From: Terriglobales bacterium
GTDB lineage: Bacteria; Acidobacteriota; Terriglobia; Terriglobales; Acidobacteriaceae
Direction: 5' to 3'
Length of the DNA: 60,176 bases
Assembly: GCA_036001865.1 (NCBI GenBank)
Contig: DASYTX010000096.1
Span: 1-60,176, forward strand
Notes under the pieces: generated by a model
The model's database searches: none
Seen by the model: the letters and a program-made list of their open reading frames with translations, nothing else
Told to the model about the DNA's origin: nothing
Shown here: positions 8,325 through 55,166 of the stretch, one piece after another
Numbering within the stretch: position 1 is the stretch's first letter
Layout of the letters: each line of letters begins with the position of its first letter
Position numbers and translations under genes: made by a program

Positions 8325-8330
8325 CCTTGC

Positions 8331-13719: not shown

Positions 13720-13957
13720 TCCCGAGAATACCCAACTGCATGAAACTTTCCAATCGCTTCTCTGCGCCTGTGCTGCGGCCCGCAACCATCGTAGGGCGCC
13801 AGCCGATCCTTTGCCGCGCGCGGGTGCGCGTTTGACAATTCCCTGACCCGGCAGGCAAACTACCGATTCCCCGGCCCGGGCTCGCTACCGATAGGTTTAG
13901 CCCGCCGGCGTCAGGCCGCCGCCTGGTGTCCACAGCTTGGTGCACGATACCTTGAAA

Positions 13958-18602: not shown

Positions 18603-18959
18603 TCACGCCGTGGCCCGCTTCTGGAAGGCCGCGATGGCCGCGTCGACGTTGTCGTAGCAATCAAACACGGTCATCAGCTTGGTGATCTGCAGCAGGTCAC
18701 GCACGCGCTGCGTCAGGTTGGCCAGCTTGATCTCCCCGCCGGCGGCACGGGCCGAGCTGTAGAGCCCCACCAGGGTACCCAGGCCTCCGCTGTCGATGTA
18801 GGTGACGCCACCCAGGTCGAGCACGATTTGGCGCGTCTCCCCGAGCAGCCCCTTGATCTTCTCCCGCAGCTCCGCCGCCTCTTCCCCAAAGACTATCCGC
18901 CCGCTGCAGTTCACCACCGCAACCGGGCCGAGGGTGCGCGTGAATATCTTCAAAGCCAT
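18603..18959 (-). CDS. STAS-domain anti-sigma-factor antagonist (second copy)
   Basis: [52 protein letters not shown] is paralogous to 14452..14799. I prefer the ATG at 18959 over the track start at 18983. Confidence 0.8.
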   Translation of the reverse strand: MALKIFTRTLGPVAVVNCSGRIVFGEEAAELREKIKGLLGETRQIVLDLGGVTYIDSGGLGTLVGLYSSARAAGGEIKLANLTQRVRDLLQITKLMTVFDCYDNVDAAIAAFQKRATA

Positions 18960-19197
18960 ATGGCCGTCTCCCCGCCAGTACAAAGCACAATTTGCGGGGA
19001 CAGCCTACCCCGATAAAGGGCTGGTTGCAAGCAGGAACAGGCGCATGGCGTACCTGCCATTATCGTTTGGCCTCATAGCCTTCGCCGCGAGAGAAACTGC
19101 TTTGGAAGTAGAGATGTAGCATGCTACGTCTCCACAGTTAGGAGTTGGAAGCTAGCGGCTGGTAGCCGCCACGCGCCATCGTATAATCGAAACTTCC

Positions 19198-38104: not shown

Positions 38105-38164
38105 CGGCGGCCAGGGTACCCGGTTCTTCGTTTCAGCATCTCAGAAAAACGGAAGGAGTTGCTA

Positions 38165-38758
38165 ATGGCTGAGAATGCAATCAAACCTGCCGCGGCCCCC
38201 GGACAAGAAAAGGCAGCCCCGCCTGACGCCGGGCATGTACCCATCACGGAAGAGATGGACAGCGCCAAGTGGACCCTTCCGCCGATAGCACCCGTGGCCG
38301 TCGCGCTGATTGCCCTCGCCGCCATCCTCGGCGCTTATTTGTGGCTGGGGCGGCCGAAGCCTGGAGCTGCGGCCACGATCAGCAAGGTGGCGGTCGCGGA
38401 ACAACAGGGCGGGAACGGTGTGATGGTGCTGCTCCACCTGCAGTTGCAGAACACTCATGAAAAGCCGCTATGGATTCGTGGCTTGAAGGCAACGCTCAAA
38501 ACCGACCAAGGCGAGTGGACGGATGTGGCCGCGTCCGTTGTGGACCACGAGCGCTATCTCGCCGCCTTCCCCGATTTGCGAGCGCACCAGATTGAACCAT
38601 TGCGGCCGGAAACCAAAATCGCCTCTGGTGGGGATGCTCAAGGCATGCTGATGGTGACCTTCCCGGTCTCGATGCAAGCCTTTGACGCGCGTAAGGGGCT
38701 CACCGTGACGGTCGATGCCTACGATCGCCGCCCGCTGGTGGTCAGCGAGGCGCGCTGA
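38165..38758 (+). CDS. hypothetical single-pass membrane protein with a beta-rich extracytoplasmic domain
   Basis: The ATG follows GGAAGGAG. The TM segment is LPPIAPVAVALIALAAILGAYLWL, and no catalytic motif was seen. Confidence 0.5.
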   Translation: MAENAIKPAAAPGQEKAAPPDAGHVPITEEMDSAKWTLPPIAPVAVALIALAAILGAYLWLGRPKPGAAATISKVAVAEQQGGNGVMVLLHLQLQNTHEKPLWIRGLKATLKTDQGEWTDVAASVVDHERYLAAFPDLRAHQIEPLRPETKIASGGDAQGMLMVTFPVSMQAFDARKGLTVTVDAYDRRPLVVSEAR

Positions 38759-39999: not shown

Positions 40000-40413
40000 G
40001 CGACCTTCCTCCCTTCGCGAGTCGCCTGGAGACAGGCTCCTTATAGCAATTGTGCCTCGCCGATGGTGCACCGCGCAAGATTCCAGAATCAGGATGGATG
40101 CGCAGAGTTACGGGCGCGAAAGAGCCTATCGAGGGTGGATTGCGCCAGCAACTCTGGCCAGCATCAACTCTCGATTCTCGTTTCGAGCAGGTGCTTGGGC
40201 TCTCGAATTGCATAGGTGATTTGCGAAGTAGTCCCTTGAGAGAAAGGAGCCCCGAGCGGTAAGTTGCTCAAGGCGTAGCTCATCAACCGTTTATTCAAGT
40301 GCCCGCTCTGAGAGCGTGTGGGCACAATCTCCCGCCATATGATCCGGGGGACACACAGTGGGTACGCAGGTGCTCACAAGAACGATTCTGCTGCCCCACT
40401 TTCAGGAGAGACG

Positions 40414-41085
40414 ATGCAATTTCGCAAGCACTTATTGGTTCTCATCGCCCTGGCAATCGTGCTGACGCTGGCGTTGGCGCAGCAGGGCGGTCGAGCGGCG
40501 GTGCGCGTCCTCTCACCGAAAGCAGGCGAGAAGATCAGCAACACTTTCGTGAACGTCAAGTACGAGCTCGCCGCACCAGTCTCGGCGGCCGGTTCTCCGA
40601 CCTTTCAGCTTAGGCTTGACGGCCGTGATCCGGTTCGCACCACCGATACCGAGCATACCTTCACCGGCCTGGCGCCGGGCAGCCACAGGCTGTCGATCGA
40701 ACTAGTCGACGCCAACAATACTCCTCTACCTGGCAGTCGCGCTGAGTTGCAGTTTACCGTCGTGTCAGGTTCCGGCCGCCCCGGAACAACTTCCGGCACG
40801 CCATTGCGGACCGGCACAGGGCTGCAGGGAGCGGTGAGTTTCGGTACGCAGCCGCGCTTGCAGTATGCTTCTCTCCTGTGGCAAACCAACGCGGGGGGGC
40901 AGTACAAGGATGCGCAGCCGTACGAGACGCCTCTGCTCAGGACTAGTTCCCTGCCGCTGCTTTCGGTAATTGGTTTGGGCGTGCTGCTGGGCGGGATCGC
41001 CTCCGCCTTGCGCACCCGACAGAGCGGGCCCTGCCAGACACTAGCTTCGACGGTGACGCCGTCGCGAAATCCTGCATCGAATTAG
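40414..41085 (+). CDS. secreted Ig-like-domain protein with a C-terminal sorting-signal-like tail (candidate sortase substrate)
   Basis: The ATG follows AGGAGAG and the signal peptide is MQFRKHLLVLIALAIVLTLALAQQ. The C-terminus reads ..YETPLLRTSS-LPLLSVIGLGVLLGGIASAL-RTRQ.. The stop lies 2 nt before the sortase start. Confidence 0.6.
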   Translation: MQFRKHLLVLIALAIVLTLALAQQGGRAAVRVLSPKAGEKISNTFVNVKYELAAPVSAAGSPTFQLRLDGRDPVRTTDTEHTFTGLAPGSHRLSIELVDANNTPLPGSRAELQFTVVSGSGRPGTTSGTPLRTGTGLQGAVSFGTQPRLQYASLLWQTNAGGQYKDAQPYETPLLRTSSLPLLSVIGLGVLLGGIASALRTRQSGPCQTLASTVTPSRNPASN

Positions 41086-41087: not shown

Positions 41088-41804
41088 GTGCCCACGTCCC
41101 TGTTTAGTGTCGAGCAGCACCAGCCTGGTTTTCTGCGGCGATTGCGCGATAGTCTGCTGCCGCGCATTCAGGCGTGGCTGGTGGAAATCACGCCGGGGCG
41201 GGCGCTTTCGCTGATCCTGCTGCTGGTTGGCGCGGGCCTGCTGCTCTATGTTGCCTCACAGTACGCGACCATGTACCTGGAGCAGCGCAACCTGGCAGGG
41301 GAGTGGGCCGAACAGAACCGTGCGGGCGCCCCTGTGCTGCCCGCTGCGGGGGCGTTGAACGAGGGTCTCACCAAGGTCCGCATTTCCAAGATCAGCCTCG
41401 ACGCCATCGTGGTCGAGGGCACATCGAATCGACAACTGCTACTGGGCCCCGGGCACATGCCGGATACGCCGCCACCTGGCGAGGCCGGTAATTCCGTCAT
41501 CACCGCCCACCGCGACACCTTCTTCCGCCACATCTACGAGCTGAACAAGGGTGACGACATCGAGGTCCGCCGCAACGGCCGCCTCTACACCTACAAGGTC
41601 ACAGGGAAGAAAGTGGTCAAGCCAGAGGATCTTTCCGTGCTGCGCCAAACCCAAGACAAGCGCCTCACCCTCATCACCTGTTATCCCACCTACTACATTG
41701 GCCCCGCGCCGGAGCGGCTGGTGGTCTTTTCCAAGCTGGAAGACCCTGCCAGCGAAGCCGCTGGGAAGACCAGCATCGCTTCCAGCCCAAGTGGAAACCA
41801 ATAA
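41088..41804 (+). CDS. sortase (class E/D-like transpeptidase), membrane anchored
   Basis: The TM anchor is ALSLILLLVGAGLLLYV. The catalytic His lies in NSVITAHRD, the TLxTC motif is RLTLITCYP, and a downstream Arg occurs in PERLVVF. Confidence 0.85.
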   Translation: MPTSLFSVEQHQPGFLRRLRDSLLPRIQAWLVEITPGRALSLILLLVGAGLLLYVASQYATMYLEQRNLAGEWAEQNRAGAPVLPAAGALNEGLTKVRISKISLDAIVVEGTSNRQLLLGPGHMPDTPPPGEAGNSVITAHRDTFFRHIYELNKGDDIEVRRNGRLYTYKVTGKKVVKPEDLSVLRQTQDKRLTLITCYPTYYIGPAPERLVVFSKLEDPASEAAGKTSIASSPSGNQ

Positions 41805-45191: not shown

Positions 45192-48100
45192 TTGCTCAAA
45201 CTGAAGAAGCTGCAAATCATCGGGTTCAAGTCGTTCTGCGACCGCACTGAACTGAAGTTTTCCGGCGACGGTATCGCGGCCATCGTGGGTCCCAACGGCT
45301 GCGGCAAGTCCAACATTGCCGACGCCATCTGCTGGGTCCTAGGAGAACAGTCAGCCAGGACCCTGCGTGGATCGCGCATGGAAGACGTAATCTTCGCCGG
45401 CACTCGCGATCGCAAGCCCACCGGCATGGCAGAGGTATCGCTGACGCTCATCGATCCGGAGGCATACCCGGGCAGCGAAAACACCGAACCGGAAATCGAG
45501 ATCGTGGACGAGCTGCCGGAGGAGGAGTGGGACGAGGCCGGGCTGCGCACCGAGGCGGCGGCTGAAACGGAGCGTGTCACGCAGGAATCTCAGCCGGGGC
45601 AGACGGAAGACGTGCCTGGGGACGAAGGTGGAACTGAACCCACCGCACAAGCAGCACCGTCCGTCATCGAGAACACGGAGCACGATGCCGATTCGCACGC
45701 TGGCGCTGGAGCGGCATCACCCACTTCCAGCGTGGTGCTGAAGATCCGGCGACGCAAGTTCAATCACCAGGAACACAAGGCAGGACAGATCGTGGTCACC
45801 CGCCGCCTGTTCCGCACCGGAGAGAGCGAATACCTGCTCAACGGCAAGCTGTGCCGCCTCCGCGACATCCAGGAGATCTTCATGGGGACGGGCCTGGGCC
45901 CGGAATCCTACGCCATCATCGAGCAGGGTCGCATCGGGCAGATCCTCTCCAGCAAGCCCCACGACCGCCGCGCCGTCATCGAAGAAGCCGCCGGCATCAC
46001 CAAATTCAAGACCAAGAAGCGCCTTGCCGAACTGCGCCTGGAAGAAGCTCGCCAGAACCTGGCGCGCGTCAACGATATCTTCGAGGAAGTGACGCGCCAG
46101 ATGAATTCGCTCAAGCGCCAGGCGGCCAAGGCCGAACGTTACGCTCGGCTGCGCGACGAGATACGCGCCAAGTTGCGCCTGGTGCTCGCCAGCAAGTTCG
46201 CGCAGTTGGCGCGCCAGTGCGCCTCCCTGAATCGGGAACTTGAGCACATCTCCGAGGACATGCGCCAGCGCTCGGAACTACTGCAGCAGTTGGAATCGCA
46301 CCAAGGCGAACGCACGCAACGCGGCTATGCCATCGAGGCCGAGGTGCGCGCCAATGCCGAACGGTTGGGGGAAATCGCCCGCGAGACCGACCGCGCCACC
46401 TCGCGCCAGCGTGGCAATGAGGAACGCTGCGTAGACCTGGCCTTACGGGCCTCGGAGGCGGAAGCGGAGCTAACCCGCATCCTGGCGCAGGCGGAATCGC
46501 TGCACAGCGAAATCGCAACCCATCGCGGATTTTTCGAGACCGCAACCGCCGAGCTGCTGACGGCCCAGAACGAAGCCGCCGCGCGACAGCAGGAAGTCTC
46601 GGCCACGGCGGAAGCCCTGGCGGCCCTGGAACAGGAGCAGGAACGGCGCCGCGTCCAGATCCTGGAGAGTGCCGGGGCTGCCGCCGACGTTCGCAACCAG
46701 ATCACGCAGGCCGAGGAGCACGCCGCCGCTCTCGACCGCGAAGCGCAGCGCTTGCAACAGGAGATCACGGCAGCCAACGCCGAGGTCGAGGCATGTGGGG
46801 GGCGCCGCGGGCAACTGGCGCTCGAATCCGAGTCGGTGAACCAGCGCTTGTGGGCGCTTTCCGCGCAGATCGACGACACGCGTCGGATTCTGGAAGCCAA
46901 GCGTGCCGAGGAAACTGAAGGCAAGCGCCGCCTGGACAGCCTGCGCGCTGAATACGCCACTCTGCTGGGCCGGCGCGGCTCGCTAGAGGCCGTCATTGCC
47001 GAGCACGGCTACTCCACCGAGTCGGTGCGCCGCCTGTTCCAGTCCGAGGCGCTGCAGCGCCGCTTTGCGCCTGCCGGGGTGCTGGCTGACTTCCTCGATG
47101 TCGATGGCGAGTACGAGTCCGTAGTCGAAGAATTCCTGCGCGATGAACTCAACTACGTAGTGGTCAAGTCCTGGGACGCCGCTGACGAAGGCCTGCGCCT
47201 GCTGCGCAGCGACGTCGATGGCCGCGCCACCTTTCTCGTCCACCCCGAGGAGGCCCAGGCGAAATTCTCCTTTGAGTTGGATGAGTCGGGCCGCCCGGCA
47301 CGCAAGCGCGGGGCCATCGTCCCGCTGAAGAACTGCATTCGCGTGCTCAACGGTTTCGGCAAATCGCTGGAAGTGATCCTGCCGAAGCTGGGCCGCGGCT
47401 ACATAACGCCTGACCCGGCCATCGCCCGCGAGCTGGCATTGGAGAACCCCGACGCGTTCTTCCTCTCCCGCAGCGGCGAATGTTTCCACAACGTCACGGT
47501 TACGGGCGGCAAGCAGCGCTCCGAGGGACCGCTCTCGATGAAGCGCGAACTGCGCGAGGTCACGCGCCAGATCGCCGGGATCGAAGATGCCTTGCGCGAC
47601 CAGGAATACCGCGTGACCACCATTGCGCGTGAGATCTCGGAACTGGTCTCGCTGCTCGACCGGCTGGAACTGGACAAGCGCGATGCTGAGCGCGAGGCGC
47701 TGACCGCAAGCCACGCTCTCGAGCAGATTGAGTCGCAACTGGAACGCAGCCACGAGCGCCAGTCCACCTGCCGTCAGGAACTGGACCGCGTGCTCGCTAG
47801 CCGCGCCGAAAAAGAAACGTTGATAGCCCAACGCGCCGCTGAGGTCGCCGCCTGCGAGCGGCGACGGGCGGACCAGGAGCACGAGTACGCCGAGGCGCAG
47901 AACAGGCTGGCCTCGCTCAAAGCCGCGCGCGACACCGCCAGCCAGACGACCGCGGAGCTTGCTGCGCGCCTGGCCACGCTGGAGGAGCGGCGCAGCGGGG
48001 CGGCCACGGCCCTGGAGCGCATTGAGGCTGTCGCTGCCGATGTCAACACCCGCAGCGACGGCTTGCGGGCGCAGATCGCCGCAGCCGTACAGGAAAAGCA

Positions 48101-49094
48101 GCAGCGCGAGCAGGAAAACCTGGAACTCGCCAACCGGCTCACGACGCTGGCCAGCGAGCGCGAAACCGCGCAAGCGCGCGCTCTCGAGCTTCAGGCCGAG
48201 TCCGAGCAGGTGCGCGCGCGGCTGGCGGAGATTGAGCACGAGCTGCGCGATCTCAGGTATCAACTGGATGCCGCGCGCGACCGCCGCGGCGAGTTGGCCG
48301 CAGCCATCGCCAAACTCGACTCCGACCAGCAGCATATGGAGCAGACCGCGCTCACCGAGCTGGGCGTGAGTGCGGCCGAGCTTCAAGCTGATGAGGCCCT
48401 TAGTCGCGTAGAAGGCGAGCAACTCGGGATCGAAGAAGACGCCCACCGCGAGATGCGGGCGCGCCTGGAAGCCATGGGGCCGGTCAACATGATGGCACTC
48501 GAGGAATACAACGAAACTGCGCAGCGACACTCGTTCCTTACCACCCAGCGCCAGGACCTGCTCGAATCCATCACCAATACCGAGAACACTATCCTGGAAA
48601 TCGAGACCGTTTCCCGGCAGAAGTTCCAGGAAGCCTTTGACCGCATCAACGAGAACTTCCAGCAAACCTTCCGCAAGCTGTTCGGCGGAGGCGACGCCTT
48701 CATGCGGTTGACCGACGAGCAGAATACGGCGGAGAGCGGCATCGATATCGTGGCTTCGCCCCCCGGCAAGAAGCTACAGAACGTGCTGCTGCTGTCGGGC
48801 GGAGAGAAGGCTTTGACTGCGCTTGCACTGTTGGTGGGCATCTTCCAATATCAGCCTAGTCCGTTCTGCATCCTCGACGAGGTGGATGCGCCGCTGGACG
48901 ACGCCAACATCGGGCGCTTCACCGAGCTGGTGCAGGAGATGAGCGCGCGTACCCAGTTCGTGCTCATTACCCACAGCAAGAAGACCATGAGCATCGCCCC
49001 CATGCTCTACGGCGTGACCATGCAGGAACCGGGCATCTCCAAGCTGGTCTCGGTGCACTTGGGAGAGCCAGCCGTTAGAGCGGCCAGCGCCTAG
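45192..49094 (+). CDS. smc: chromosome segregation protein SMC
   Basis: Walker A is GPNGCGKSN, followed by long coiled coils and a hinge. The signature motif is LSGGEKALTALAL and Walker B is FCILDEVDAPLD. The TTG start follows AGGGG. Confidence 0.95.
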   Translation: MLKLKKLQIIGFKSFCDRTELKFSGDGIAAIVGPNGCGKSNIADAICWVLGEQSARTLRGSRMEDVIFAGTRDRKPTGMAEVSLTLIDPEAYPGSENTEPEIEIVDELPEEEWDEAGLRTEAAAETERVTQESQPGQTEDVPGDEGGTEPTAQAAPSVIENTEHDADSHAGAGAASPTSSVVLKIRRRKFNHQEHKAGQIVVTRRLFRTGESEYLLNGKLCRLRDIQEIFMGTGLGPESYAIIEQGRIGQILSSKPHDRRAVIEEAAGITKFKTKKRLAELRLEEARQNLARVNDIFEEVTRQMNSLKRQAAKAERYARLRDEIRAKLRLVLASKFAQLARQCASLNRELEHISEDMRQRSELLQQLESHQGERTQRGYAIEAEVRANAERLGEIARETDRATSRQRGNEERCVDLALRASEAEAELTRILAQAESLHSEIATHRGFFETATAELLTAQNEAAARQQEVSATAEALAALEQEQERRRVQILESAGAAADVRNQITQAEEHAAALDREAQRLQQEITAANAEVEACGGRRGQLALESESVNQRLWALSAQIDDTRRILEAKRAEETEGKRRLDSLRAEYATLLGRRGSLEAVIAEHGYSTESVRRLFQSEALQRRFAPAGVLADFLDVDGEYESVVEEFLRDELNYVVVKSWDAADEGLRLLRSDVDGRATFLVHPEEAQAKFSFELDESGRPARKRGAIVPLKNCIRVLNGFGKSLEVILPKLGRGYITPDPAIARELALENPDAFFLSRSGECFHNVTVTGGKQRSEGPLSMKRELREVTRQIAGIEDALRDQEYRVTTIAREISELVSLLDRLELDKRDAEREALTASHALEQIESQLERSHERQSTCRQELDRVLASRAEKETLIAQRAAEVAACERRRADQEHEYAEAQNRLASLKAARDTASQTTAELAARLATLEERRSGAATALERIEAVAADVNTRSDGLRAQIAAAVQEKQQREQENLELANRLTTLASERETAQARALELQAESEQVRARLAEIEHELRDLRYQLDAARDRRGELAAAIAKLDSDQQHMEQTALTELGVSAAELQADEALSRVEGEQLGIEEDAHREMRARLEAMGPVNMMALEEYNETAQRHSFLTTQRQDLLESITNTENTILEIETVSRQKFQEAFDRINENFQQTFRKLFGGGDAFMRLTDEQNTAESGIDIVASPPGKKLQNVLLLSGGEKALTALALLVGIFQYQPSPFCILDEVDAPLDDANIGRFTELVQEMSARTQFVLITHSKKTMSIAPMLYGVTMQEPGISKLVSVHLGEPAVRAASA

Positions 49095-49155
49095 CCCCGC
49101 CCCCAGCTACGTACCCCGTGCCGAGAGTGTGCTCTGCTGTTCTTGCCCTCCCTGA

Positions 49156-49184
49156 TTGACCCTTCGGCGCGCGGGGCGTATCCT
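49156..49184 (+). promoter_or_regulatory. sigma70-like promoter of the FTR1 operon
   Basis: TTGACC (49156-49161), a 17-nt spacer and TATCCT (49179-49184). Confidence 0.5.
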
Positions 49185-49203
49185 AGGGTGCTGCTGCCCT
49201 AGG
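49182..49203. promoter_or_regulatory. perfect 7-N8-7 palindrome overlapping the -10 element (candidate metalloregulator operator)
   Basis: The sequence is CCTAGGG-TGCTGCTG-CCCTAGG. Confidence 0.4.
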
Positions 49204-49213
49204 TGAAACTGAG

Positions 49214-50485
49214 TTGCAACTAGGGCCGCTGTCTCCCATGCTCGAGGCTCTGGTCATCACCCTGCGTGAGGGTGTCGAAGCCGCCCTCATCGTCGGCATC
49301 ACTCTTGCCTACCTGGCGAAGATCGGCCGTGCCGACCTGCGCAAGGTGGTGTTTGCCGCGCTGGGGACGGCGTTCGTAGGCAGCATCGCCGCCGCCATTG
49401 TGCTCTCCCGCGCGGCGGTAAATCAGGAGGCGTTTGAAGGCTGGGTGATGCTGGCCGCCGCTTTCTTCGTGGTCACCATGATCATCTTCATGGCGCGCGC
49501 GGCGCGCGCTCTGAAGGGTCGCATCGAAAACCGGGTAGGGATGCTGGCGGGCGCGGGGTCGCAGGTCGGCCTGTTCCTATTCATTCTCCTCATGGTCCTG
49601 CGCGAAGGCGCGGAGACGGTGCTGATTCTCTCCGCCGTCTCCTTCAACAGCAGCGCGCTGATGAGCCTGATGGGCACAGTTCTGGGCATCGGCTTGGCGG
49701 TGCTGTTTGGAGTGATGTTTGTCAAGGGCAGCGTGCGCATCAACCTGCAGAAGTTCTTCCACGTCACCAGCGTGATCCTGGTTTTCGTGGCGGTGCAACT
49801 GGTGGTCTCCGGTCTGCACGAACTCTCCGAAGCCAGCGTGCTGCCGTCGAGCAAGCGGGAGATGGCCATCATCGGTCCCATCGTGCGCAATGACATGTTC
49901 TTCTTCGTTACCATCCTTGCTCTGGCTGCGCTAATGATTCTCTTCGAGTACCGCCGCCGCGCTCCCGAGGCGGTGGCCGCCTCGCGCGCCGAGCAGCGCA
50001 AGGCCCAGTGGACAGCGCGGCGCGAGCGCCTGTGGATGGCATCGGTGTACGCCAGCTCCTTCGTCTTCATCATGCTGGTGACGGCCCAGTTCATCTACGC
50101 CAAGAGCACCTCTTCCCTGACGCCGGCCACGCCTGTGGTCTTGGTGGACGGCAAAGTCACGGTTTCGACGACACAGCTCCAGGTCGGACAACTCGAGCGT
50201 TACGTGGCCAATCTCGGCGGTACCGAGGTCCGTTTCTTCCTCTACCGCAAGCCGGACAACCAGGTCGCCGTGCTCCTGGACGCCTGCGAGATCTGCGGTG
50301 GCGTCGGCTTTTATGCCGGCAGCGCCGGGCTGATTTGCAAGAACTGCACCTCGCCCATCAATCCCATGTCCGTCGGCCAAGCGGGCGGCTGCAATCCCAT
50401 TCCGCTGAAGGCCCTCGTGGAGGCCGAGCGCGTGACCGTTACGCTGTCTGAGCTGTCAACCGGCGCCAAGCACTTCGGGAAGTGA
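49214..50485 (+). CDS. FTR1/EfeU-family iron permease fused to a C-terminal DUF2318-like Cys-rich domain
   Basis: Two REXXE motifs are present (ITLREGVEAAL and MVLREGAETVL) across about 7 TMs. An extra TM is then followed by ..DACEICGGVGFYAGSAGLICKNCTSPINP..GGCNPIPL. The start is TTG 49214 (after AGGTGA) or ATG 49238. Confidence 0.8.
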   Translation: MQLGPLSPMLEALVITLREGVEAALIVGITLAYLAKIGRADLRKVVFAALGTAFVGSIAAAIVLSRAAVNQEAFEGWVMLAAAFFVVTMIIFMARAARALKGRIENRVGMLAGAGSQVGLFLFILLMVLREGAETVLILSAVSFNSSALMSLMGTVLGIGLAVLFGVMFVKGSVRINLQKFFHVTSVILVFVAVQLVVSGLHELSEASVLPSSKREMAIIGPIVRNDMFFFVTILALAALMILFEYRRRAPEAVAASRAEQRKAQWTARRERLWMASVYASSFVFIMLVTAQFIYAKSTSSLTPATPVVLVDGKVTVSTTQLQVGQLERYVANLGGTEVRFFLYRKPDNQVAVLLDACEICGGVGFYAGSAGLICKNCTSPINPMSVGQAGGCNPIPLKALVEAERVTVTLSELSTGAKHFGK

Positions 50486-50489
50486 TGCC

Positions 50490-51755
50490 ATGTTCGCCCG
50501 TCTGGTCTATCAATCGTTCCTGCGGCAACGCCGGCGGAAACTGCTGGCCGGACTGGCGATCATGCTGGGGGTGGCGGTGGCCACCGCCATGATTGCCGTG
50601 GCCGCCGACATCGGTGACAAGATCAGCCGTGAACTGCGCACCTACGGCGCAAACATTGTCGTTTACCCGCAGGAAGACACCCTGGATGTGGAGATCGGCG
50701 GGATCAATCTCAAGCCGTCTAGCGACGGCGCCTTTCTAAAAGAATCTGACCTGCCCGCGATCAAGGGCACATTCTGGCGAAATAACATCGTGGGCTTCGC
50801 GCCTTTCCTGCCGCTGCGCGTTGACGTTAGACAAGGAACTGCGGTGAGACCTGTCGACCTCATCGGGACATACTTCTCTCGACGCTTACGCTTTGGCAAA
50901 GATGAGTTCGTCACGGGAGTGCGCAACACGCACCCGTGGTGGCGCGTCGCCGGCAACTGGCCCGACGACGCCAGCCGCGACGTGCTCCTGGGGGAAGACC
51001 TGGCACAGCGACTGGGCACGCAACCCGGTGACAAAGTGCAGATCGCCGGCCGCGAAATTCGGGTTGTGGGCATTCTGTCTTCTGGCGGCGCGGAGGACGG
51101 GGCTGTGGTAGCGCCTCTGAGGTTCGCGCAGGAGATCCTCGGCAGGCCCGACGCAGTGCGCCGTGTCCTGGTCAGCGCGCTGACCAAGCCTGAAGACGCG
51201 CTGGCTCGCCGCGATCCCGACACCATGGACCGCGAGACCCGGGACCGCTGGTACTGCTCGCCCTATGCAAACTCCATCGCTTACCAGCTCCAAGAAGCCA
51301 TCCCCAACGCGCGCGCCGAGCAGATTCGCCAGGTGGCACAGAACGAAGGCGTGGTGCTGTCCCGCATTAAGGGACTCATGCTGTTCCTGACCCTGGCTGC
51401 CCTGGGCGCTTCCGCGCTTGCCGTCTCGGCCGCCATGGCCACCGCCATCTTCGAGCGCCGGCGCGAGGTCGGGCTGATGAAGGCGCTGGGCGCAGGAAAC
51501 GCCTCGGTTGCAGCCTTGTTTTTTGCCGAAGCCGGGCTGCTGGCGATCGTGGGCGGGGCGGCGGGCTTTGCCGCCGGAGTTGGTATGGCGCAGCAGGTAA
51601 GCGCCTGGATCTTCAACTCGCGCGTGACCGTCCAGCCGGTGCTCTTCCCTGTTGTGCTGGTGGTTGCAATCCTCGTGACTTTCACAGGCAGCGTGGCTGC
51701 CATCCGGCGGGCGATGCGCTTTGATCCCGCCGTGGTGCTGCGGGGGGACGCATGA
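50490..51755 (+). CDS. ABC transporter permease, FtsX/MacB type
   Basis: An N-terminal TM is followed by a large extracytoplasmic MacB_PCD-like domain and a C-terminal FtsX 3-TM bundle (..EVGLMKALGA..). Confidence 0.85.
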   Translation: MFARLVYQSFLRQRRRKLLAGLAIMLGVAVATAMIAVAADIGDKISRELRTYGANIVVYPQEDTLDVEIGGINLKPSSDGAFLKESDLPAIKGTFWRNNIVGFAPFLPLRVDVRQGTAVRPVDLIGTYFSRRLRFGKDEFVTGVRNTHPWWRVAGNWPDDASRDVLLGEDLAQRLGTQPGDKVQIAGREIRVVGILSSGGAEDGAVVAPLRFAQEILGRPDAVRRVLVSALTKPEDALARRDPDTMDRETRDRWYCSPYANSIAYQLQEAIPNARAEQIRQVAQNEGVVLSRIKGLMLFLTLAALGASALAVSAAMATAIFERRREVGLMKALGAGNASVAALFFAEAGLLAIVGGAAGFAAGVGMAQQVSAWIFNSRVTVQPVLFPVVLVVAILVTFTGSVAAIRRAMRFDPAVVLRGDA

Positions 51756-52858
51756 ATTCGCGACGCAAGATGTTTCTTCTCATGCTGTCGCGCCCTCTGG
51801 TTGTGCGTCGCGGCAGGACGTTGACGGCGCTGCTGGCCGTCGTGGTTGCCGCCTCGGTCGCAACCGCCACACTGAACCTTTACACCGATGTACAGGCCAA
51901 ACTTCATAAAGAGTTCCGCAGCTACGGCGCAAATATTGTGATCGCCGCACGTGAAGGCAAGACGCTGCCCGATGATGCGCTGGCCAGGACAGAAGCCGCC
52001 ATCGCCGGCCGGGGCATTGCCGCGCCATTCGGGTATGTGGTCGCGCATACCACGAGCGGATCGCCCGTGGTTGTTGCAGGCACAGACGTGGAACGCGCTC
52101 GACGGCTGAACGGCTGGTGGTCCGTCACCGCCTGGCCACGGGCTTCCGGGGCTGCGCTTTTGGGTGCCCGTGCAGTGCAGGTGCTTGCGCCTGATGGCAA
52201 GCCGTTTGACCTCTCGTTCCGCGCACGCAAGTTGAGGGTCGCGCCTGCGGGTACGCTGCGCACCGGAGCAGGCGAAGACAGCCGCGTCTATCTTTCGCTA
52301 GCCGACTTTCAGCGCTGGACCGGCCTGAAGCCGTCCACCATCGAGGTCGCAATCACGGGATCTGCGGACGAAATAGCGACGATGATTCCGCGATTGGCAG
52401 CATCGTTGCCCGAAGCCCAGGCGCGGCCGGTAAGGCAGATCGTCGAAGCCGAGGCGCGGGTTTTGGACAAGGCACGCGCTGCATTCTGGGCCACCAGCGC
52501 CATCATTCTGCTCACGGCTGCGCTGTGCATGCTGGCCACCCTGACGGCCTCGGTGCTCGACCGACGCAAGGACTTCGCCGTCATGAAGGCACTGGGGGCT
52601 TCGAACCTCGCTGTAAACGCCTTGTTCGCAGCCGAAGCCGCGGCCATCGGACTGGTAGGCGCAGTATTGGGGTTTGGCATCGGGGTAGGGATCGCTGCCT
52701 GGATCGGCCGCGCCAATTTTCATGCCGCGGTTGTGCCGCGCTTTGGCATACTGCCTGCCGTACTCGGCGGAAGCGTGCTGCTGGGGCTGATTTCTGCCAC
52801 CTTGCCTATGTCGCTGCTTCGCAAGGTGCAGCCTGCGGCAATTTTACGAGGAGAGTGA
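51752..52858 (+). CDS. ABC transporter permease, FtsX/MacB type (second copy)
   Basis: The architecture matches the first permease (..DFAVMKALGAS..). The start overlaps the upstream stop and the stop overlaps the next start. Confidence 0.85.
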   Translation: MNSRRKMFLLMLSRPLVVRRGRTLTALLAVVVAASVATATLNLYTDVQAKLHKEFRSYGANIVIAAREGKTLPDDALARTEAAIAGRGIAAPFGYVVAHTTSGSPVVVAGTDVERARRLNGWWSVTAWPRASGAALLGARAVQVLAPDGKPFDLSFRARKLRVAPAGTLRTGAGEDSRVYLSLADFQRWTGLKPSTIEVAITGSADEIATMIPRLAASLPEAQARPVRQIVEAEARVLDKARAAFWATSAIILLTAALCMLATLTASVLDRRKDFAVMKALGASNLAVNALFAAEAAAIGLVGAVLGFGIGVGIAAWIGRANFHAAVVPRFGILPAVLGGSVLLGLISATLPMSLLRKVQPAAILRGE

Positions 52859-54081
52859 TGTCGATCGAGATCAACCACGTCAGCCGTCAGTACCCTGCGC
52901 GGGCCGAGGCCAACGGCGCGGTGGTGCGTGCGCTGGACGACGTCTCGCTATCGGTGCCGGCAGGCGAGTGGCTGGCAGTAATGGGCCCTTCGGGCTCGGG
53001 CAAATCGACATTAGTTAACCTCATCGGCTGCCTCGACCGGCCCACCGCAGGCGAGATATGGCTTGAGGGCCAGAACGTTGCCACCTTCGCGGAATCGGAG
53101 CTGAACCGCTTCCGTGCCGAGAAGATCGGCTTCATCTTCCAGCAGTACCATCTCGTTCCGTACTTGACCGCGCTGGAGAACGTTCTGCTGGCGCAGTACT
53201 TCCATAGCATGACTGATCGCGCCGAGGCGCTCGAAGCACTGGAGTGCGTGGGGCTGGCGGACCGCGCCCATCATCTTCCGGCGCAGCTTTCCGGTGGCGA
53301 GCAGCAGCGCGTGTGCATCGCGCGCGCACTGATCAACGACCCTAAGATCATTCTGGCTGACGAGCCCACCGGCAATCTCGACGCCCACAACGAAGAACTG
53401 GTGCTCCGCCTGTTGCGCGAAATGCACCAGCAGGGCCGCACCATCGTGATGGTGACGCACGATCCCGTGGTAGCACGCATGGCCGACCGGCGGGTCGATC
53501 TGCACCACGGCCGCATCGCCGCCCAGGAAATCTTTTCCCTGGCCAACGACCTTCAGTTCGACGAAATCTTGGAGGAAATCTGGATACTGCACGAGAATGG
53601 CGAGCCCGCGGAGGTCGGCCGCATGCATGTGGACGGCGCGCTGCCCATCTCACTGGCCGTGGAGAAGATGGCCCACATGGATCTCATCACGGTGCGCCCG
53701 CATCCTCCCCAGCCGCACGCCCACAAAGATGTCCTCAACCGCTGCCACGAGGCCATCTGGCCGGACGGCAAGCCGGTCGGCGATGGCCACCTGATCGTGG
53801 AGTTCACCCCGCGCGGACGGCAGATGGCGGCCGACATCATCCGCCGGCACCGCCTCGCCGAACGCCTCCTCACCGAGACCCTGAAGGTACAGAGCGAAGC
53901 GGAGGTGGAGCAGCAAGCCTGCAGGTTCGAACACATTCTGTCGCCCGAGGCCACCGACAGGATCTGCTCCTTCCTCGGCCACCCGACGACTTGCCCGCAT
54001 GGCGCACCCATCCCTGCTGGTTCTTGCTGCGCAGCGAAGGCGGACCAGCACTGGTCCTCGTTTCGCGCGACCGGCGACTAG
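52858..54081 (+). CDS. ABC transporter ATP-binding protein fused to a C-terminal DtxR/IdeR-like metalloregulator module
   Basis: The ATG at 52858 overlaps the stop of the second permease (TGATG). Walker A is GPSGSGKST, the signature is LSGGEQQR, Walker B is ILADEPTGNLD and the H-loop is VTHD. The tail ..ILEEIWILHENGE..IRRHRLAERLLTETL..EQQACRFEHILSPE..FLGHPTTCPHGAPIP aligns to DtxR MRKHRLAERLLTDII..HDEACRWEHVMSDE..FGNPIP. Confidence 0.85.
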   Translation: MSIEINHVSRQYPARAEANGAVVRALDDVSLSVPAGEWLAVMGPSGSGKSTLVNLIGCLDRPTAGEIWLEGQNVATFAESELNRFRAEKIGFIFQQYHLVPYLTALENVLLAQYFHSMTDRAEALEALECVGLADRAHHLPAQLSGGEQQRVCIARALINDPKIILADEPTGNLDAHNEELVLRLLREMHQQGRTIVMVTHDPVVARMADRRVDLHHGRIAAQEIFSLANDLQFDEILEEIWILHENGEPAEVGRMHVDGALPISLAVEKMAHMDLITVRPHPPQPHAHKDVLNRCHEAIWPDGKPVGDGHLIVEFTPRGRQMAADIIRRHRLAERLLTETLKVQSEAEVEQQACRFEHILSPEATDRICSFLGHPTTCPHGAPIPAGSCCAAKADQHWSSFRATGD

Positions 54082-54090
54082 CCCCACGCC

Positions 54091-54121
54091 AAAAAACAAG
54101 GAGGGGCCAAGCGGCCTCTCC
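54091..54121 (-). terminator. rho-independent terminator of the TonB-like gene (may also stop the convergent ABC operon)
   Basis: The stem-loop GGAGGGGCC-AAGC-GGCCTCTCC is followed on the minus strand by TTGTTTTTT. Confidence 0.65.
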
Positions 54122-54155
54122 TCGAAGTGTTGAAGGCAAGACTTAAAGCAGAACT

Positions 54156-55166
54156 TTAGTACAGGCGGAAGCTGACCTCCACGTTCATCTGCACCGCCAC
54201 GGGGTGGCCGTCTTTCAGGGCGGGCTCAAACTTCCACTGCCGGACCGCCTGGAGAGCCCTCTCGTCCAAGCCCATGCCCAGGCTGCGGGCCACCCGCAAC
54301 TCACGCGGACGGCCGTCGGGTCCGACAATCAGCCACAGCACCACGGTGCCCTGATACTTCGCTTTGCGAGCTTCTTCCGAGTATTCCGGATCAGGCGTGT
54401 AGAGCGGCCGCGGGGCTGACACTCCGCCGCCAATGCGAAACACGCCGCCACCGATACCACCGCCCTTTCCCGGACCAACGCCTGGTCCTTCACCGGATCC
54501 AACTCCGCCACCAGAACCTGACCCGATGCCGCTGCCCGAGCCCGTGCCGTTCGACGGCGGCCCCACGACCTTTGCCATGGGATCACCCAGGCTGGGCAGG
54601 TTGTTAGAGGGCAGCTTCACTTGCGGAGGAATCACGACTGTAGGCTCGACGGGAAGTTTGGGAGCAACATTGCGTACCACCACCGCGGGCGGGGTGATCT
54701 GCTCCATGGCCAGTTTCGGCAACCGGCCCTTAGGAGCTTCCAGCTTGTCACGGTCGCCGCCGCCTCCGCCACCGCCAACGGTGTCGTTAGGCTTGTTAGA
54801 AATTGGCATGTAAACGGAGATGTCGGGAGAGATCAAGCTGACGACTTGTTGATTCTTGACTTCCTGCACCACCCTGCTGCCCAGGACCGACAGGGCAATC
54901 AACGCGCCCACCATGGCTGTGTGCGCCAGCAGAGAGCCAAATGTGGCCGTCTTTTTGTGCTGGGACTCGCCCCAGATCTCACGCACCCTGACAGGGCGTG
55001 AGGTCAACTTCAGGGGCGGGAGCTTCTGCGGAAACAAGTTGTCGCGGAGGTTCTCTTTGAGGGAACTCCACCACGACTTATCCATATTGAGCATCAGCCG
55101 ACGCAGGTGCTTGTCAGCGTCGCTGAGCGCGATGTCCTGACGCGGGATTAAAACCTGGTTCGCCAT
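54156..55166 (-). CDS. TonB-family energy transducer with long Pro- and Gly-rich linkers
   Basis: The TM segment is LLAHTAMVGALIALSVL. A Pro/Val-rich segment and then GSGSGIGSGSGGGVGSGEGPGVGPGKGGGIGGG follow. The TonB_C domain is YTPDPEYSEEARKAKYQGTVVLWLIVGPDGRP..V..SLGMGLDE.A..AV..WKFEPA. Confidence 0.8.
   Translation of the reverse strand: MANQVLIPRQDIALSDADKHLRRLMLNMDKSWWSSLKENLRDNLFPQKLPPLKLTSRPVRVREIWGESQHKKTATFGSLLAHTAMVGALIALSVLGSRVVQEVKNQQVVSLISPDISVYMPISNKPNDTVGGGGGGGDRDKLEAPKGRLPKLAMEQITPPAVVVRNVAPKLPVEPTVVIPPQVKLPSNNLPSLGDPMAKVVGPPSNGTGSGSGIGSGSGGGVGSGEGPGVGPGKGGGIGGGVFRIGGGVSAPRPLYTPDPEYSEEARKAKYQGTVVLWLIVGPDGRPRELRVARSLGMGLDERALQAVRQWKFEPALKDGHPVAVQMNVEVSFRLY

What the first reader, a model, noticed from the sequence alone, without database searches (positions are those of the whole stretch)
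49214..54081. Compacted, fused version of the FTR1-associated Fet-type iron uptake system, lacking P19 and thioredoxin partners
Seen in the sequence: four tightly coupled genes have overlapping stops and starts at 51752/51755 and 52856/52858. The first is an FTR1 permease with two REXXE motifs, fused in one ORF to a DUF2318-like Cys-rich domain (CEICGG..CKNC..GGC). Two FtsX/MacB-type permeases and an ABC ATPase follow. Established knowledge, as I recall it: in Campylobacter jejuni the FTR1/P19 pair (cj1658-cj1659) is followed by cj1660-cj1665. Those genes encode a DUF2318 membrane protein, two FtsX-like permeases, an ABC ATPase and two thioredoxins, and they are required for the same iron uptake route. 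Inference: this locus is the same functional module, with FTR1 and DUF2318 fused. That fusion argues they act as one complex. No P19/FetP copper-iron periplasmic protein and no thioredoxins are present in the operon, so the minimal core may be FTR1-DUF2318-FtsX2-ATPase.
Basis: partly seen in the sequence, partly recalled or inferred. Interest (0 to 1): 0.7.

Follow-up and report, generated by a model that had tools for sequence, protein, structure and literature searches.

The report
P19-less iron uptake operon with sensor-fused ATPase

Summary
Four co-directional, tightly coupled genes (49238-54081, +) encode:
- an FTR1 permease with two intact REXXE motifs plus a C-terminal FtrD-like (ex-DUF2318) five-Cys domain;
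- two MacB_PCD/FtsX permeases;
- a MacB-type ABC ATPase.

Two corrections:
- Gene 1 starts at ATG 49238, not TTG 49214.
- The ATPase carries a C-terminal DtxR/IdeR-like module with conserved metal ligands.

The module is orthologous to FetABCD. No P19, second FTR1 or thioredoxin lies in the operon, the tested window ORFs, or within 10 kb of 80 related loci.

"FetM fused to FetA" is probably the wrong history. Canonical FetA proteins, found next to separate FTR1 and P19 genes, align collinearly with gene 1. They have the same membrane-region-plus-DUF2318 layout, but their REXXE motifs are degenerate. Gene 1 is therefore best read as a FetA that is still a working permease.

Both composite proteins occur in every sufficiently long Terriglobales locus, and in divergent metagenomic lineages. 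Most orthologous promoters carry a Fur-like box. The window carries a variant 7-1-7 palindrome.

Proposed mechanism (inferred): Fur-family-repressed iron import through FetA, assisted by the FetBCD mechanotransducer, which the fused sensor throttles when cytoplasmic metal is high.

Verdict: a new variant of a known system, of moderate to high interest.

The parts
49156..49184 (+). Sigma-70-type promoter: -35 TTGACC, 17-nt spacer, -10 TATCCT
   Evidence: It is the only promoter-like site found in 48900-54400. The same TTGAC-N17-TATCCT arrangement sits upstream of most orthologous operons.
49202..49220 (+). Operator-like inverted repeat GGTGAAACTGAGTTGCAAC, which contains the 7-1-7 repeat TGAAACT-G-AGTTGCA, just downstream of the -10
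   Evidence: It is the only match in the window to GTTGCAAC-N3-GTTGCAAC (2 mismatches). The same element occupies the same position in 19 other orthologous loci. 124 loci have a Fur-like box TTGAAATTGAAATTCATTTTCAA there instead. That it binds a Fur-family regulator is inference from the 7-1-7 format.
49238..50485 (+). Gene 1, fetA-like (415 aa): FTR1-type permease core plus TM8 plus periplasmic FtrD-like (DUF2318) Cys-rich domain
   Evidence: Pfam FTR1 E 1e-31 and PF10080 E 3e-24. NCBIfam EfeU 148 bits, below its cut-off. AF2 model pLDDT 90, pTM 0.83: 7 TM helices, a long helix/TM8 and a beta-rich domain at 298-402. The start is set by homologues.
49265..49279 (+). REXXE motif 1 (R10-E-G-V-E14) in TM1
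   Evidence: R10, E11 and E14 are invariant in 60 homologues of 31-48% identity. The motif is degenerate in canonical FetA.
49601..49615 (+). REXXE motif 2 (R122-E-G-A-E126) in TM4
   Evidence: R122, E123 and E126 are invariant. The motif is degenerate in canonical FetA.
50183..50476 (+). FtrD-like/DUF2318 domain with C350-x2-C353-x13-C367-x2-C370-x14-C385
   Evidence: Pfam PF10080. All five Cys are invariant. The spacing matches the motif reported for C. jejuni 1651/FetA (PMC6083913). There is a weak Rieske-domain fold resemblance only (Foldseek E 0.13, prob 0.98).
50490..51755 (+). Gene 2, fetB-like MacB_PCD/FtsX permease (421 aa)
   Evidence: Pfam. 42-45% identical to FetB of canonical clusters, versus 31-32% to FetC.
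51752..52858 (+). Gene 3, fetC-like MacB_PCD/FtsX permease (368 aa)
   Evidence: Pfam. Best match is FetC of canonical clusters, 29-34% identical.
52858..54081 (+). Gene 4, fetD-like MacB-type ABC ATPase fused to a DtxR/IdeR-like module (407 aa)
   Evidence: Pfam ABC_tran plus Fe_dep_repr_C. The NBD is 59-61% identical to FetD. The best NCBIfam hits are MacB, FtsE and LolD. The fusion is present in every sufficiently long Terriglobales locus and in a distant locus, L084.
53542..54030 (+). DtxR/IdeR-like two-domain module (aa 229-391): acidic degenerate wHTH-like part, His/Cys-rich wing insertion, metal-binding/dimerisation domain, C-terminal CC
   Evidence: phmmer against IdeR/DtxR structures gives E 5e-16, with H79, E83, C102, E105 and H106 equivalents conserved. 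Invariant residues: H331, E335, E351, C355, E358, H359, plus C296, H297, C370, H375, C379, H381, C390, C391. AF2 pLDDT is about 90 here. Foldseek against two-domain IdeR/DtxR gives TM 0.72-0.81 normalised to target. Net charge of residues 229-281 is -8.
54100..54122 (.). GC-rich hairpin GGAGGGGCC-AAGC-GGCCTCTCC between the convergent gene 4 and tonB-like gene. An A-run precedes it on the + strand, which is a T-run after it on the - strand.
   Evidence: Read directly from the sequence. The terminator scan did not flag it. Its function is inferred.

Best explanation
This is a metal-repressed, P19-independent FetABCD iron uptake operon of a Terriglobales acidobacterium.

- Gene 1 is a FetA-family protein that still has a functional FTR1 permease core with both REXXE motifs. 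It is tethered through an eighth TM helix to a periplasmic five-Cys FtrD-like domain. That domain would act as the built-in periplasmic metal-handling or redox partner, the role that P19, cupredoxin or ferroxidase proteins play in other FTR1 systems.
- Genes 2-4 form a FetB-FetC-(FetD)2 type VII (MacB-like) ABC machine. It converts cytoplasmic ATP hydrolysis into periplasmic movement that assists FetA.
- The DtxR/IdeR-like module fused to FetD binds cytoplasmic Fe2+ (or Mn2+). It then dimerises or rearranges between the two ATPase subunits and throttles the machine when the cell is metal-replete. This is feedback at the protein level.
- Transcription is controlled separately by a Fur-family operator over the promoter.

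Shown: domain content, motif conservation, orthology to FetB/C/D, conservation of both composite proteins, absence of P19 nearby, and promoter/operator conservation.

Inferred: the substrate, the direction of transport, the role of the Cys domain, the mechanotransduction role, and the allosteric role of the sensor.
For: Domains and motifs:
- Pfam and NCBIfam assignments.
- REXXE x2, H194-E-x2-E198 and five Cys are invariant in 60 homologues of 31-48% identity.

Homology to FTR1 and FetA:
- The gene 1 N-domain is 31% identical to a bona fide FetM (E 3e-22). It is collinear with canonical FetA N-domains (E 6e-13 to 2e-6).
- hhalign of canonical FetA N-domains against FetM gives probability 82%, E 1e-5, with the REXXE positions aligned.

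Context dichotomy:
- 3 of 3 REXXE-degenerate FetA loci have separate FTR1 and P19.
- None of 6 intact-REXXE representatives examined has them; two of those contigs are very short.

Orthology and conservation:
- FetB, FetC and FetD orthology.
- All sufficiently long loci among 80 genome loci keep the four genes and both composite proteins.
- No P19 in the window or in the loci.

Regulation:
- A Fur-like box follows the -10 in 124 of 157 upstream regions. The variant palindrome occurs in 20, including the window.

Sensor module:
- IdeR ligand positions are conserved.
- Confident DtxR-like fold.
- The wHTH-like part is acidic, net charge -8. It lacks the second helix of the HTH and gives no PF01325 hit.
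- Its presumptive recognition helix is the same in loci with either operator type.

Experimental background: in C. jejuni, fetA, fetB, fetC and fetD are each needed for growth under iron limitation (PMC10783030).
Against: - No expression, transport or metal-binding data exist for this operon or any P19-less relative.
- The window itself lacks the canonical Fur-like box, so its regulating metal is unknown.
- The primary site of the sensor has Glu where DtxR has Met10. This is MntR-like, so Mn2+ is possible.
- A P19, EfeO or cupredoxin gene could lie elsewhere in the genome.
- The AF2 model of the ATPase domain was poor (pLDDT below 50 for residues 1-67 and 200-228). The geometry between the NBD and the sensor is therefore unknown.
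- One intact-REXXE locus has an ATPase without the sensor (L082). In another (L167/L168) the third gene has no Pfam hit and no ATPase gene is adjacent. The sensor is therefore not essential to the module.
- The Rieske-like fold hint for DUF2318 is below significance.
Confidence: 0.6

Rival explanations
1. A secondary gene fusion joined a FetM-type FTR1 permease to a FetA-type DUF2318 protein. This compacted a conventional fetMP-fetABCDEF cluster and then lost P19 and the thioredoxins.
For: - Gene 1 matches both Pfam models.
- Its N-domain is more similar to a FetM (E 3e-22) than to canonical FetA N-domains (E 6e-13 at best).
Against: - Canonical FetA already has the same collinear membrane-region-plus-DUF2318 layout (PMC10783030 predicts 8 TM). 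No fusion is needed to explain the architecture.
- Gene 1 lacks the roughly 150-aa N-terminal periplasmic domain seen in the three FetM sequences.
- The higher similarity to FetM can be explained by relaxed constraint on FetA after it lost its REXXE motifs.
- The intact form makes up 66 of 72 full-length representatives, down to about 31% identity, so it is old and diverse.
Confidence: 0.2
2. The DtxR-like module on the ATPase is a working DNA-binding repressor. Membrane-tethered FetD would then directly autoregulate the operon by binding the palindrome at the promoter when loaded with metal.
For: - The fold covers both the wHTH-like and the dimerisation domains of IdeR/DtxR.
- The metal ligands are conserved.
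- A conserved palindrome lies at the promoter.
Against: - The wHTH-like region has net charge -8, no PF01325 match, and no second HTH helix in the model.
- The promoter boxes have Fur-type format, 9-1-9 and 7-1-7, not the DtxR TTAGG-N9-CCTAA format (the consensus comparison is from my own knowledge).
- The presumptive recognition helix does not change between loci with the two different operator types.
Confidence: 0.08
3. The module is not primarily an iron importer. It could import another divalent metal (Mn2+, or Pb2+ as in other FTR1/ILT-family members). Alternatively FetBCD could be an exporter, for example of a reductant or a metallophore, with FetA as an accessory.
For: - The window's operator is not the Fur-like box of its relatives.
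- The sensor has Glu at the DtxR Met10 position, as in Mn sensors (the comparison is from my own knowledge).
- MacB-type ABC systems characterised so far act outward or mechanically, and the substrate of FetBCD is unknown (PMC10783030).
Against: - The REXXE pairs are the iron-translocation signature of FTR1/EfeU (established knowledge).
- 124 of 157 orthologous promoters carry a Fur-like box.
- A distant relative sits next to fur and hemP.
- The Cys102-equivalent ligand of Fe-sensing DtxR/IdeR is retained.
- The C. jejuni orthologues give iron-dependent growth phenotypes (PMC10783030).
Confidence: 0.12

Closest known systems
Campylobacter jejuni fetMP-fetABCDEF (cj1658-cj1665; CJJ81176_1649-1656)
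   Same: - The gene order FetA (multi-TM plus DUF2318 with the CxxC-x13-CxxC-x14/15-C motif), FetB, FetC (MacB_PCD/FtsX), FetD (ABC ATPase).
- Orthology to canonical clusters is supported by best matches.
- Fur-type control in most orthologues (a Fur box is reported in PMC6083913).
   Different: - No FetM, no FetP/P19, and no thioredoxins or FMN-binding protein.
- FetA keeps both REXXE motifs. Canonical FetA proteins from FTR1-P19 clusters have lost them. For C. jejuni FetA only DUF2318 and YHS were reported by Pfam (PMC10783030).
- No YHS domain.
- FetD carries a DtxR-like module.
FTR1/EfeU/FtrC oxidase-dependent iron permeases (Ftr1p-Fet3p, EfeUOB, FtrABCD)
   Same: - A 7-TM core with REXXE in TM1 and TM4.
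- Pfam FTR1 match above threshold, and an EfeU-like NCBIfam match.
- Expected dependence on an extracytoplasmic redox or metal-handling partner (PMC11966278 for the concept).
   Different: - The partner is not a multicopper oxidase, cupredoxin, P19 or peroxidase. It is a covalently attached five-Cys domain.
- The system is coupled to a MacB-type ABC machine.
- The NCBIfam EfeU score (148 bits) is far below the equivalog cut-off (255).
DtxR/IdeR/MntR metalloregulators
   Same: - The two-domain fold (Foldseek TM 0.72-0.81 to two-domain IdeR/DtxR).
- Fe_dep_repr_C match E 2e-28.
- Equivalents of H79, E83, C102, E105 and H106 are conserved.
   Different: - It is fused to an ABC ATPase rather than free-standing.
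- The wHTH is acidic and degenerate.
- There is no SH3-like third domain. Instead there is a conserved CPHG...CC tail and, in Terriglobales, a His/Cys-rich wing insertion.
ABC transporters with C-terminal regulatory domains on the ATPase (MetNI, ModBC, MalK; trans-inhibition)
   Same: The concept: a ligand-sensing domain appended to the NBD that could couple cytoplasmic substrate level to ATPase activity. The analogy is from established knowledge and was not tested here.
   Different: - Those are type I importers with ACT/NIL or TOBE-type domains.
- Here the carrier is a type VII (MacB/FtsEX/LolCDE-like) ATPase, and the sensor is a transcription-factor-derived metal-binding module.
- I found no description of such a fusion in the searched literature.

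Membership tests
FTR1/EfeU (iron/lead transporter) permease family | Pfam FTR1 match above the gathering score | tested here: met
   110.7 bits against a cut-off of 25.3, residues 9-208 of the 423-aa ORF.
FTR1/EfeU (iron/lead transporter) permease family | Two REXXE motifs in TM1 and TM4 | tested here: met
   REGVE (10-14) and REGAE (122-126). They are invariant in 60 homologues and lie in helices 2-28 and 109-135 of the AF2 model.
FTR1/EfeU (iron/lead transporter) permease family | A separate extracytoplasmic ferroxidase, cupredoxin or P19 partner encoded alongside | tested here: not met
   None found in the operon, in the window ORFs tested, or within 10 kb of 80 related loci. The rest of the genome is not available.
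FTR1/EfeU (iron/lead transporter) permease family | Iron transport activity | not testable with these tools
   Needs uptake assays.
FetA (Cj1660-type) of the Fet system | About 8 TM helices followed by a periplasmic DUF2318 domain with CxxC-x13-CxxC-x14/15-C | tested here: met
   PF10080 E 3e-24. Cys at 350, 353, 367, 370 and 385. The AF2 topology fits. Full-length collinear alignment to FetA proteins of canonical clusters.
FetA (Cj1660-type) of the Fet system | Encoded immediately upstream of fetB, fetC and fetD | tested here: met
FetA (Cj1660-type) of the Fet system | C-terminal YHS/TRASH domain | tested here: not met
   No YHS hit in gene 1. Some relatives (P0007, P0022) have one.
fetMP-fetABCDEF iron uptake system | FetM (FTR1) and FetP (P19, PF10634) encoded upstream of fetA | tested here: not met
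   Upstream is SMC. There is no PF10634 hit or tblastn match. Canonical clusters do show both genes.
fetMP-fetABCDEF iron uptake system | A periplasmic thioredoxin or FMN-binding gene after fetD | tested here: not met
   Gene 4 is followed by a convergent TonB_C gene. A Redoxin/Thioredoxin_10 gene lies 39 kb away and is not linked.
fetMP-fetABCDEF iron uptake system | Fur box at the promoter and induction by iron limitation | tested here: inconclusive
   A Fur-like box is present in 124 of 157 orthologous promoters. The window has a different 7-1-7 palindrome. Expression was not tested.
Type VII (MacB/LolCDE/FtsEX-like) ABC systems | Permeases with an N-terminal TM, a large periplasmic MacB_PCD and a C-terminal FtsX 3-TM bundle, plus a MacB-like NBD | tested here: met
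   Pfam hits for both permeases. Hydropathy shows 1+3 TM segments. The best NCBIfam matches of the NBD are MacB, FtsE and LolD. Foldseek hits the MacB NBD at 47% identity.
DtxR/IdeR/MntR metalloregulators | Metal-binding/dimerisation domain with conserved ligands | tested here: met
   PF02742 98 bits. Equivalents of H79, E83, C102, E105 and H106 are invariant, H98 is replaced by E, and M10 by E.
DtxR/IdeR/MntR metalloregulators | A functional N-terminal winged-HTH DNA-binding domain | tested here: not met
   No PF01325 hit. Net charge is -8. The second HTH helix is missing in a confident model. There is no co-variation with operator type. The overall fold is still DtxR-like.
DtxR/IdeR/MntR metalloregulators | A free-standing cytoplasmic transcription factor | tested here: not met
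   It is translationally fused to the ABC ATPase in every sufficiently long Terriglobales locus and in L084.

The most novel reading that the evidence does not exclude
Three linked claims:

1. FetA, so far described only as a membrane protein of unknown function with a DUF2318 domain, is in origin an FTR1 permease. In P19-less lineages it is the sole iron channel.
2. In the canonical pathogen systems it would be a pseudo-permease partner of FetM.
3. The FetBCD machine is gated directly by cytoplasmic iron, through a transcription-factor-derived DtxR module fused to its ATPase. This would be an undescribed kind of post-translational metal feedback on a type VII ABC mechanotransducer.
Probability: 0.35. 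Interest if true: 0.75.

Novelty: new variant of a known kind. Interest (0 to 1): 0.6.

Why it matters
The Fet system is a virulence-associated iron uptake route in Campylobacter, Yersinia and uropathogenic E. coli. The roles of its FetA and FetBCD components are still unknown (PMC10783030). This natural minimal version bears on that in three ways.

- **P19 and FetM are dispensable.** A module built from FetABCD alone exists and is widespread.
- **FetA may itself be a permease.** The shared layout and the intact REXXE motifs point to an FTR1-derived origin for FetA.
- **FetBCD is linked to cytoplasmic metal status.** The link is physical, through the fused DtxR-like sensor. This makes it possible to test whether FetBCD is a regulated motor for iron import rather than a conventional transporter.

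The operon also documents a probable main high-affinity iron route in Terriglobales, an abundant and poorly studied group of soil bacteria.

Tried and rejected
**Searches that failed or fell short**
- The search for homologous proteins failed by time-out for gene 1 (twice) and for full-length gene 4. Only the C-terminal 183 aa could be searched. That search returned close, mostly fragmentary orthologues. The wider distribution of the ABC::DtxR fusion could therefore not be counted.
- The metagenome scan with a diverse alignment again returned only close relatives, 54-72% identical.
- Cluster look-up gave almost no taxonomy for the distant fused proteins.

**Ideas rejected**
- The CCTAGGG-N8-CCCTAGG palindrome (49182-49203) as a DtxR box. 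It is absent from relatives and has the wrong spacing.
- The conserved upstream small proteins of relatives (182 and 152 aa) as P19 candidates. They are coiled-coil-like proteins in a uvrA/TPR/SprT-like housekeeping block and do not match P19.
- Other copies of either operator type in the window. None was found.
- A riboswitch or leader RNA. There are no Rfam hits near the operon.

**Structure searches**
- A sequence search of gene 1 against solved structures found nothing.
- A fold search found nothing significant, only a weak resemblance to Rieske domains.
- The AF2 model of gene 4 is unreliable in the ATPase part, because the alignment rows were C-terminal fragments.

Full report
**1. What is in the sequence**

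Between the end of an SMC gene (45192-49094) and a convergent TonB-like gene (54156-55166, minus strand) lie four co-directional ORFs.
Gene 1 stops at TGA 50483-50485, 4 nt before gene 2 ATG 50490.
- Genes 2 and 3 overlap in ATGA at 51752-51755.
- Gene 3 TGA (52856-52858) shares its A with gene 4 ATG 52858.

Pfam gives the following:

| Gene | Pfam domains |
|---|---|
| 1 | FTR1 (E 1e-31) plus FtrD-like PF10080, the former DUF2318 (E 3e-24) |
| 2 and 3 | MacB_PCD plus FtsX |
| 4 | ABC_tran (E 2e-36) plus Fe_dep_repr_C (E 2e-28) |

In a search of 1.84 billion representative proteins, essentially all hits start at residue 9 of the longest ORF. The real start is therefore ATG 49238 (415 aa). The TTG at 49214 lies inside a promoter-proximal palindrome.

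**2. Source and conservation**

A scan of one genome per species found 127 relatives of gene 1. The best 80 are all Terriglobales/Acidobacteriota MAGs, 61-73% identical and full length. One bin is labelled Chlamydiota and is probably mis-binned.

tblastn with the window proteins shows the same four genes in the same order in every locus long enough to show them. The ATPase always carries the DtxR-like C-terminus there.

The upstream neighbour is not conserved. Most relatives have a uvrA/TPR/small-protein/SprT-like block instead of SMC. The downstream TonB-like and IleRS genes are shared by about 30 loci, at variable distance, which looks like synteny rather than operon membership.

**3. Is P19 nearby?**

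No.
- Pfam scans of 36 window ORFs found no PF10634, no second FTR1 and no EfeO.
- tblastn with a P19 protein taken from a canonical cluster found nothing better than E 0.4, either in the window or in the 80 loci with 10-kb flanks.
- The only thioredoxin-fold gene (9697-10719) is 39 kb away.
- The rest of the genome cannot be examined.

**4. What gene 1 really is**

Among the 150 best representative hits, 72 are full length.
- 66 of these keep both REXXE motifs and the five Cys.
- At the low-identity tail (27-32%) are P0130, P0137, P0145, P0146 and P0148. They align with gene 1 from residue 9 to about 416, yet have LKSSFE/LHKGLD-type sequences where the REXXE motifs should be. Pfam sees only PF10080 in them, with FTR1 sub-threshold at E 0.9 to 3e-4 or absent.

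I looked up three of these. Each sits in a textbook cluster: FTR1 - P19 - FetA - FtsX - FtsX - ABC. They are therefore canonical FetA proteins.

Evidence that the FetA membrane region is FTR1-derived:
- The window N-domain is 31% identical to the FetM of one such cluster (E 3e-22). It also matches the canonical FetA N-domains collinearly (E 6e-13 to 2e-6).
- A profile-profile comparison of canonical FetA N-domains with FetM cores gives 82% probability, E 1e-5. The degenerate positions fall exactly on the REXXE motifs.
- C. jejuni FetA is described as eight TM helices plus DUF2318 plus YHS, with no mention of FTR1 (PMC10783030).

My reading is that the 'FTR1-like membrane region plus DUF2318' layout is the family architecture of FetA, not a special fusion in this locus. 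What differs is whether the permease motifs survive.
- Where a separate FetM and P19 exist, the motifs are lost (3 of 3 loci).
- Where the motifs are intact, I found no separate FTR1 or P19. This rests on six representatives: L082, L083, L084, L165, L167/L168 and L169.
- Several of these contigs are short, so the second count is suggestive, not proof.

**5. Genes 2-4**

- Gene 2 is 42-45% identical to the FetB-position permease of canonical clusters, against 31-32% to FetC.
- Gene 3 matches FetC best.
- The ATPase domain is 59-61% identical to FetD.
- The best NCBIfam hits for the ATPase are MacB, FtsE and LolD.

The module is therefore FetABCD with a type VII (MacB-like) ABC core.

**6. The sensor on the ATPase**

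Residues 229-391 of gene 4 form a DtxR-like module.
- Sequence search against solved structures hits IdeR and DtxR (E 5e-16). It aligns RRHRLAERLL...ACRFEH with the H79/E83 and C102/E105/H106 ligand positions.
- In 121 sequences the invariant residues include H331, E335, E351, C355, E358 and H359. Further invariant residues are C296, H297, C370, H375, C379, H381, C390 and C391.
- An AF2 model is confident for this part (pLDDT about 90) but poor for the ATPase.
- Foldseek places the module on two-domain IdeR/DtxR structures, TM 0.72-0.81 normalised to target.

The part that corresponds to the DNA-binding winged helix looks non-functional for DNA binding.
- It has no PF01325 match.
- It lacks the second HTH helix in the model.
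- It has a net charge of -8.
- Its presumptive recognition helix (GALPVSIAVEKM) is the same in loci with two different promoter operators.

I therefore read the module as a metal-sensing, dimerising regulatory domain and not as a repressor.

The fusion is not confined to Terriglobales. A locus whose FetA is only 39% identical has an ATPase 50% identical over the full length, including the module. That ATPase lacks the His/Cys-rich wing insertion. Another divergent locus has a plain 218-aa ATPase, so the sensor is optional.

**7. Regulation**

The only promoter-like site in 5.5 kb is TTGACC-17-TATCCT at 49156-49184, and it is conserved in relatives.

Counts over 157 upstream regions:

| Element directly after the -10 | Number of regions |
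|---|---|
| TTGAAA(T/A)TGAA(A/T)TTCATTTTCAA | 124 |
| (A)GTTGCAAC-TNA-GTTGCAAC | 20, including the window |
| Neither | 13 |

- The first element is a near-perfect palindrome. By my count it matches the classical Fur box GATAATGATAATCATTATC at about 14-15 of 19 positions.
- The second contains a 7-1-7 repeat TGCAACT-N-AGTTGCA, the format of Fur-family operators (my knowledge). In the window it lies at 49202-49220 with one degenerate half-site.
- The two elements are mutually exclusive.
- The window's nearest relatives have the Fur-like box, so the switch is recent and unexplained.
- This supports metal-responsive repression for the family, but leaves the metal for this particular locus open.
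- No RNA element was detected.

**8. Mechanism proposed**

All steps are inferred except the parts list.
1. Under metal limitation the operon is derepressed.
2. FetA conducts iron through its REXXE-lined FTR1 core.
3. Its tethered periplasmic five-Cys domain stands in for the missing P19, cupredoxin or oxidase partner, by binding metal or shuttling electrons. Pfam labels the family 'iron-sulfur containing', and the best fold resemblance, not significant, is to Rieske domains.
4. FetB-FetC-(FetD)2 works like MacB, LolCDE and FtsEX. It transmits ATP-driven movement to its periplasmic domains to assist FetA, for example in stripping or handing over iron.
5. When cytoplasmic Fe2+ rises, the two DtxR-like modules bind metal and change the NBD dimer cycle. 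This shuts the machine off faster than transcription can.

The closest analogy is trans-inhibition of MetNI and ModBC.

**9. Comparison and novelty**

The closest system is fetMP-fetABCDEF (PMC6083913, PMC10783030). The window shares FetABCD. It fails the tests for FetM, P19, the thioredoxin or FMN-binding protein, and YHS.

The 2018 survey reported that all 33 species examined had the first six genes, and that DUF2318 proteins 'almost always' map to such clusters. The data here show a large, diverse P19-less branch.

In the searchable literature I found no mention of three things:
- FTR1 homology of FetA;
- REXXE-intact FetA;
- a DtxR module on an ABC ATPase.

Database names for the fragments are inconsistent: 'EcfA2', 'glutathione transport ATPase', 'Mn-dependent DtxR family regulator'. 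This suggests the architecture has gone unnoticed.

The proteins themselves are common in public data, so this is a new variant of a known system, not a new kind of system.

**10. Verdict**

- Interest is 0.6.

Noticed in passing
window 49202-49220; loci L022, L028, L034, L037, L050, L066, L071, L073, L086, L094, L097, L099, L109, L133, L150, L152, L156, L160, L164: Orthologous operons carry one of two mutually exclusive operators at the same promoter position. One is a Fur-like box (124 loci). The other is GTTGCAAC-N3-GTTGCAAC (20 loci, including the window). The window's closest relatives have the Fur-like box, so the operator was swapped recently. The regulator for the second type is unknown.
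   Followed up: partly
about 28 nt upstream of the -35 in 61 of 157 orthologous loci (e.g. L007, L008, L013); absent from window 49095-49155: A CRP/FNR-type palindrome TGTGA-N6-TCACA sits at roughly -62 of the operon promoter in many relatives. This suggests an additional activator input that the window lacks.
   Followed up: partly
window 49182-49203: A perfect inverted repeat CCTAGGG-N8-CCCTAGG overlaps the -10 hexamer. It was not seen in the related loci, and its significance is unknown.
   Followed up: partly
window 53698-53790 (ATPase residues 281-311): A His/Cys-rich insertion (PHPPQPHAHK...CHE) lies in the wing of the DtxR-like module. C296 and H297 are invariant, and H282, H287 and H289 nearly so, in Terriglobales. 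It is absent from the distant L084 homologue and may be an extra metal site.
   Followed up: partly
window 11144-12403 (-) and 12472-13785 (-): An NRAMP (MntH-like) metal transporter gene lies directly downstream of a gene encoding a soluble PRC-barrel + MgtE_N + CBS protein. This is a second metal-transport locus in the window, with an unusual putative regulatory partner.
   Followed up: no
window 6706-9149: A NifU_N scaffold gene (-) lies next to a radical SAM gene and a Peripla_BP_2 (iron-siderophore/cobalamin-type binding protein) gene that has no adjacent ABC permease or ATPase.
   Followed up: no
window 13937-14799 and 18603-18983; 18095-18445: A partner-switching set: an RsbW-like HATPase_c_2 kinase plus a STAS protein, and a second STAS gene beside the tmRNA gene (tag peptide ANTQLAYAA).
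   Followed up: no
L167 7001-10600 and L168 3638-7237: In this divergent lineage the REXXE-intact FetA is followed by one FtsX permease and a 369-aa protein with no Pfam hit. No ATPase gene is adjacent, so this may be an even more reduced or rearranged module.
   Followed up: no
L084 2599-6901: The distant DtxR-fused module is preceded by fur, hemP, DUF6662, an FMN_bind protein and an Aq_1264_TM protein. This is an iron-regulon context with the FMN-binding partner that Liu et al. described for non-proteobacterial clusters.
   Followed up: no
L020 (JBLMXE010000513.1): A contig assigned to a 'Chlamydiota' MAG carries a locus 67% identical to the Terriglobales operon. It is probably a binning error.
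   Followed up: no
window 54100-54122: A GC-rich hairpin lies between the convergent ATPase and TonB-like genes, followed by a T-run on the minus strand. It is a likely terminator for the TonB-like gene and possibly bidirectional. The simple terminator scan missed it.
   Followed up: no
window 9-1130 and 1140-1637 (+); 38159-38758 and 40318-41085 (+): Four sizeable ORFs have no Pfam match at the thresholds used (E 1e-4 for the first two, 1e-3 for the others). The last two lie just upstream of a sortase gene (41088-41804).
   Followed up: no
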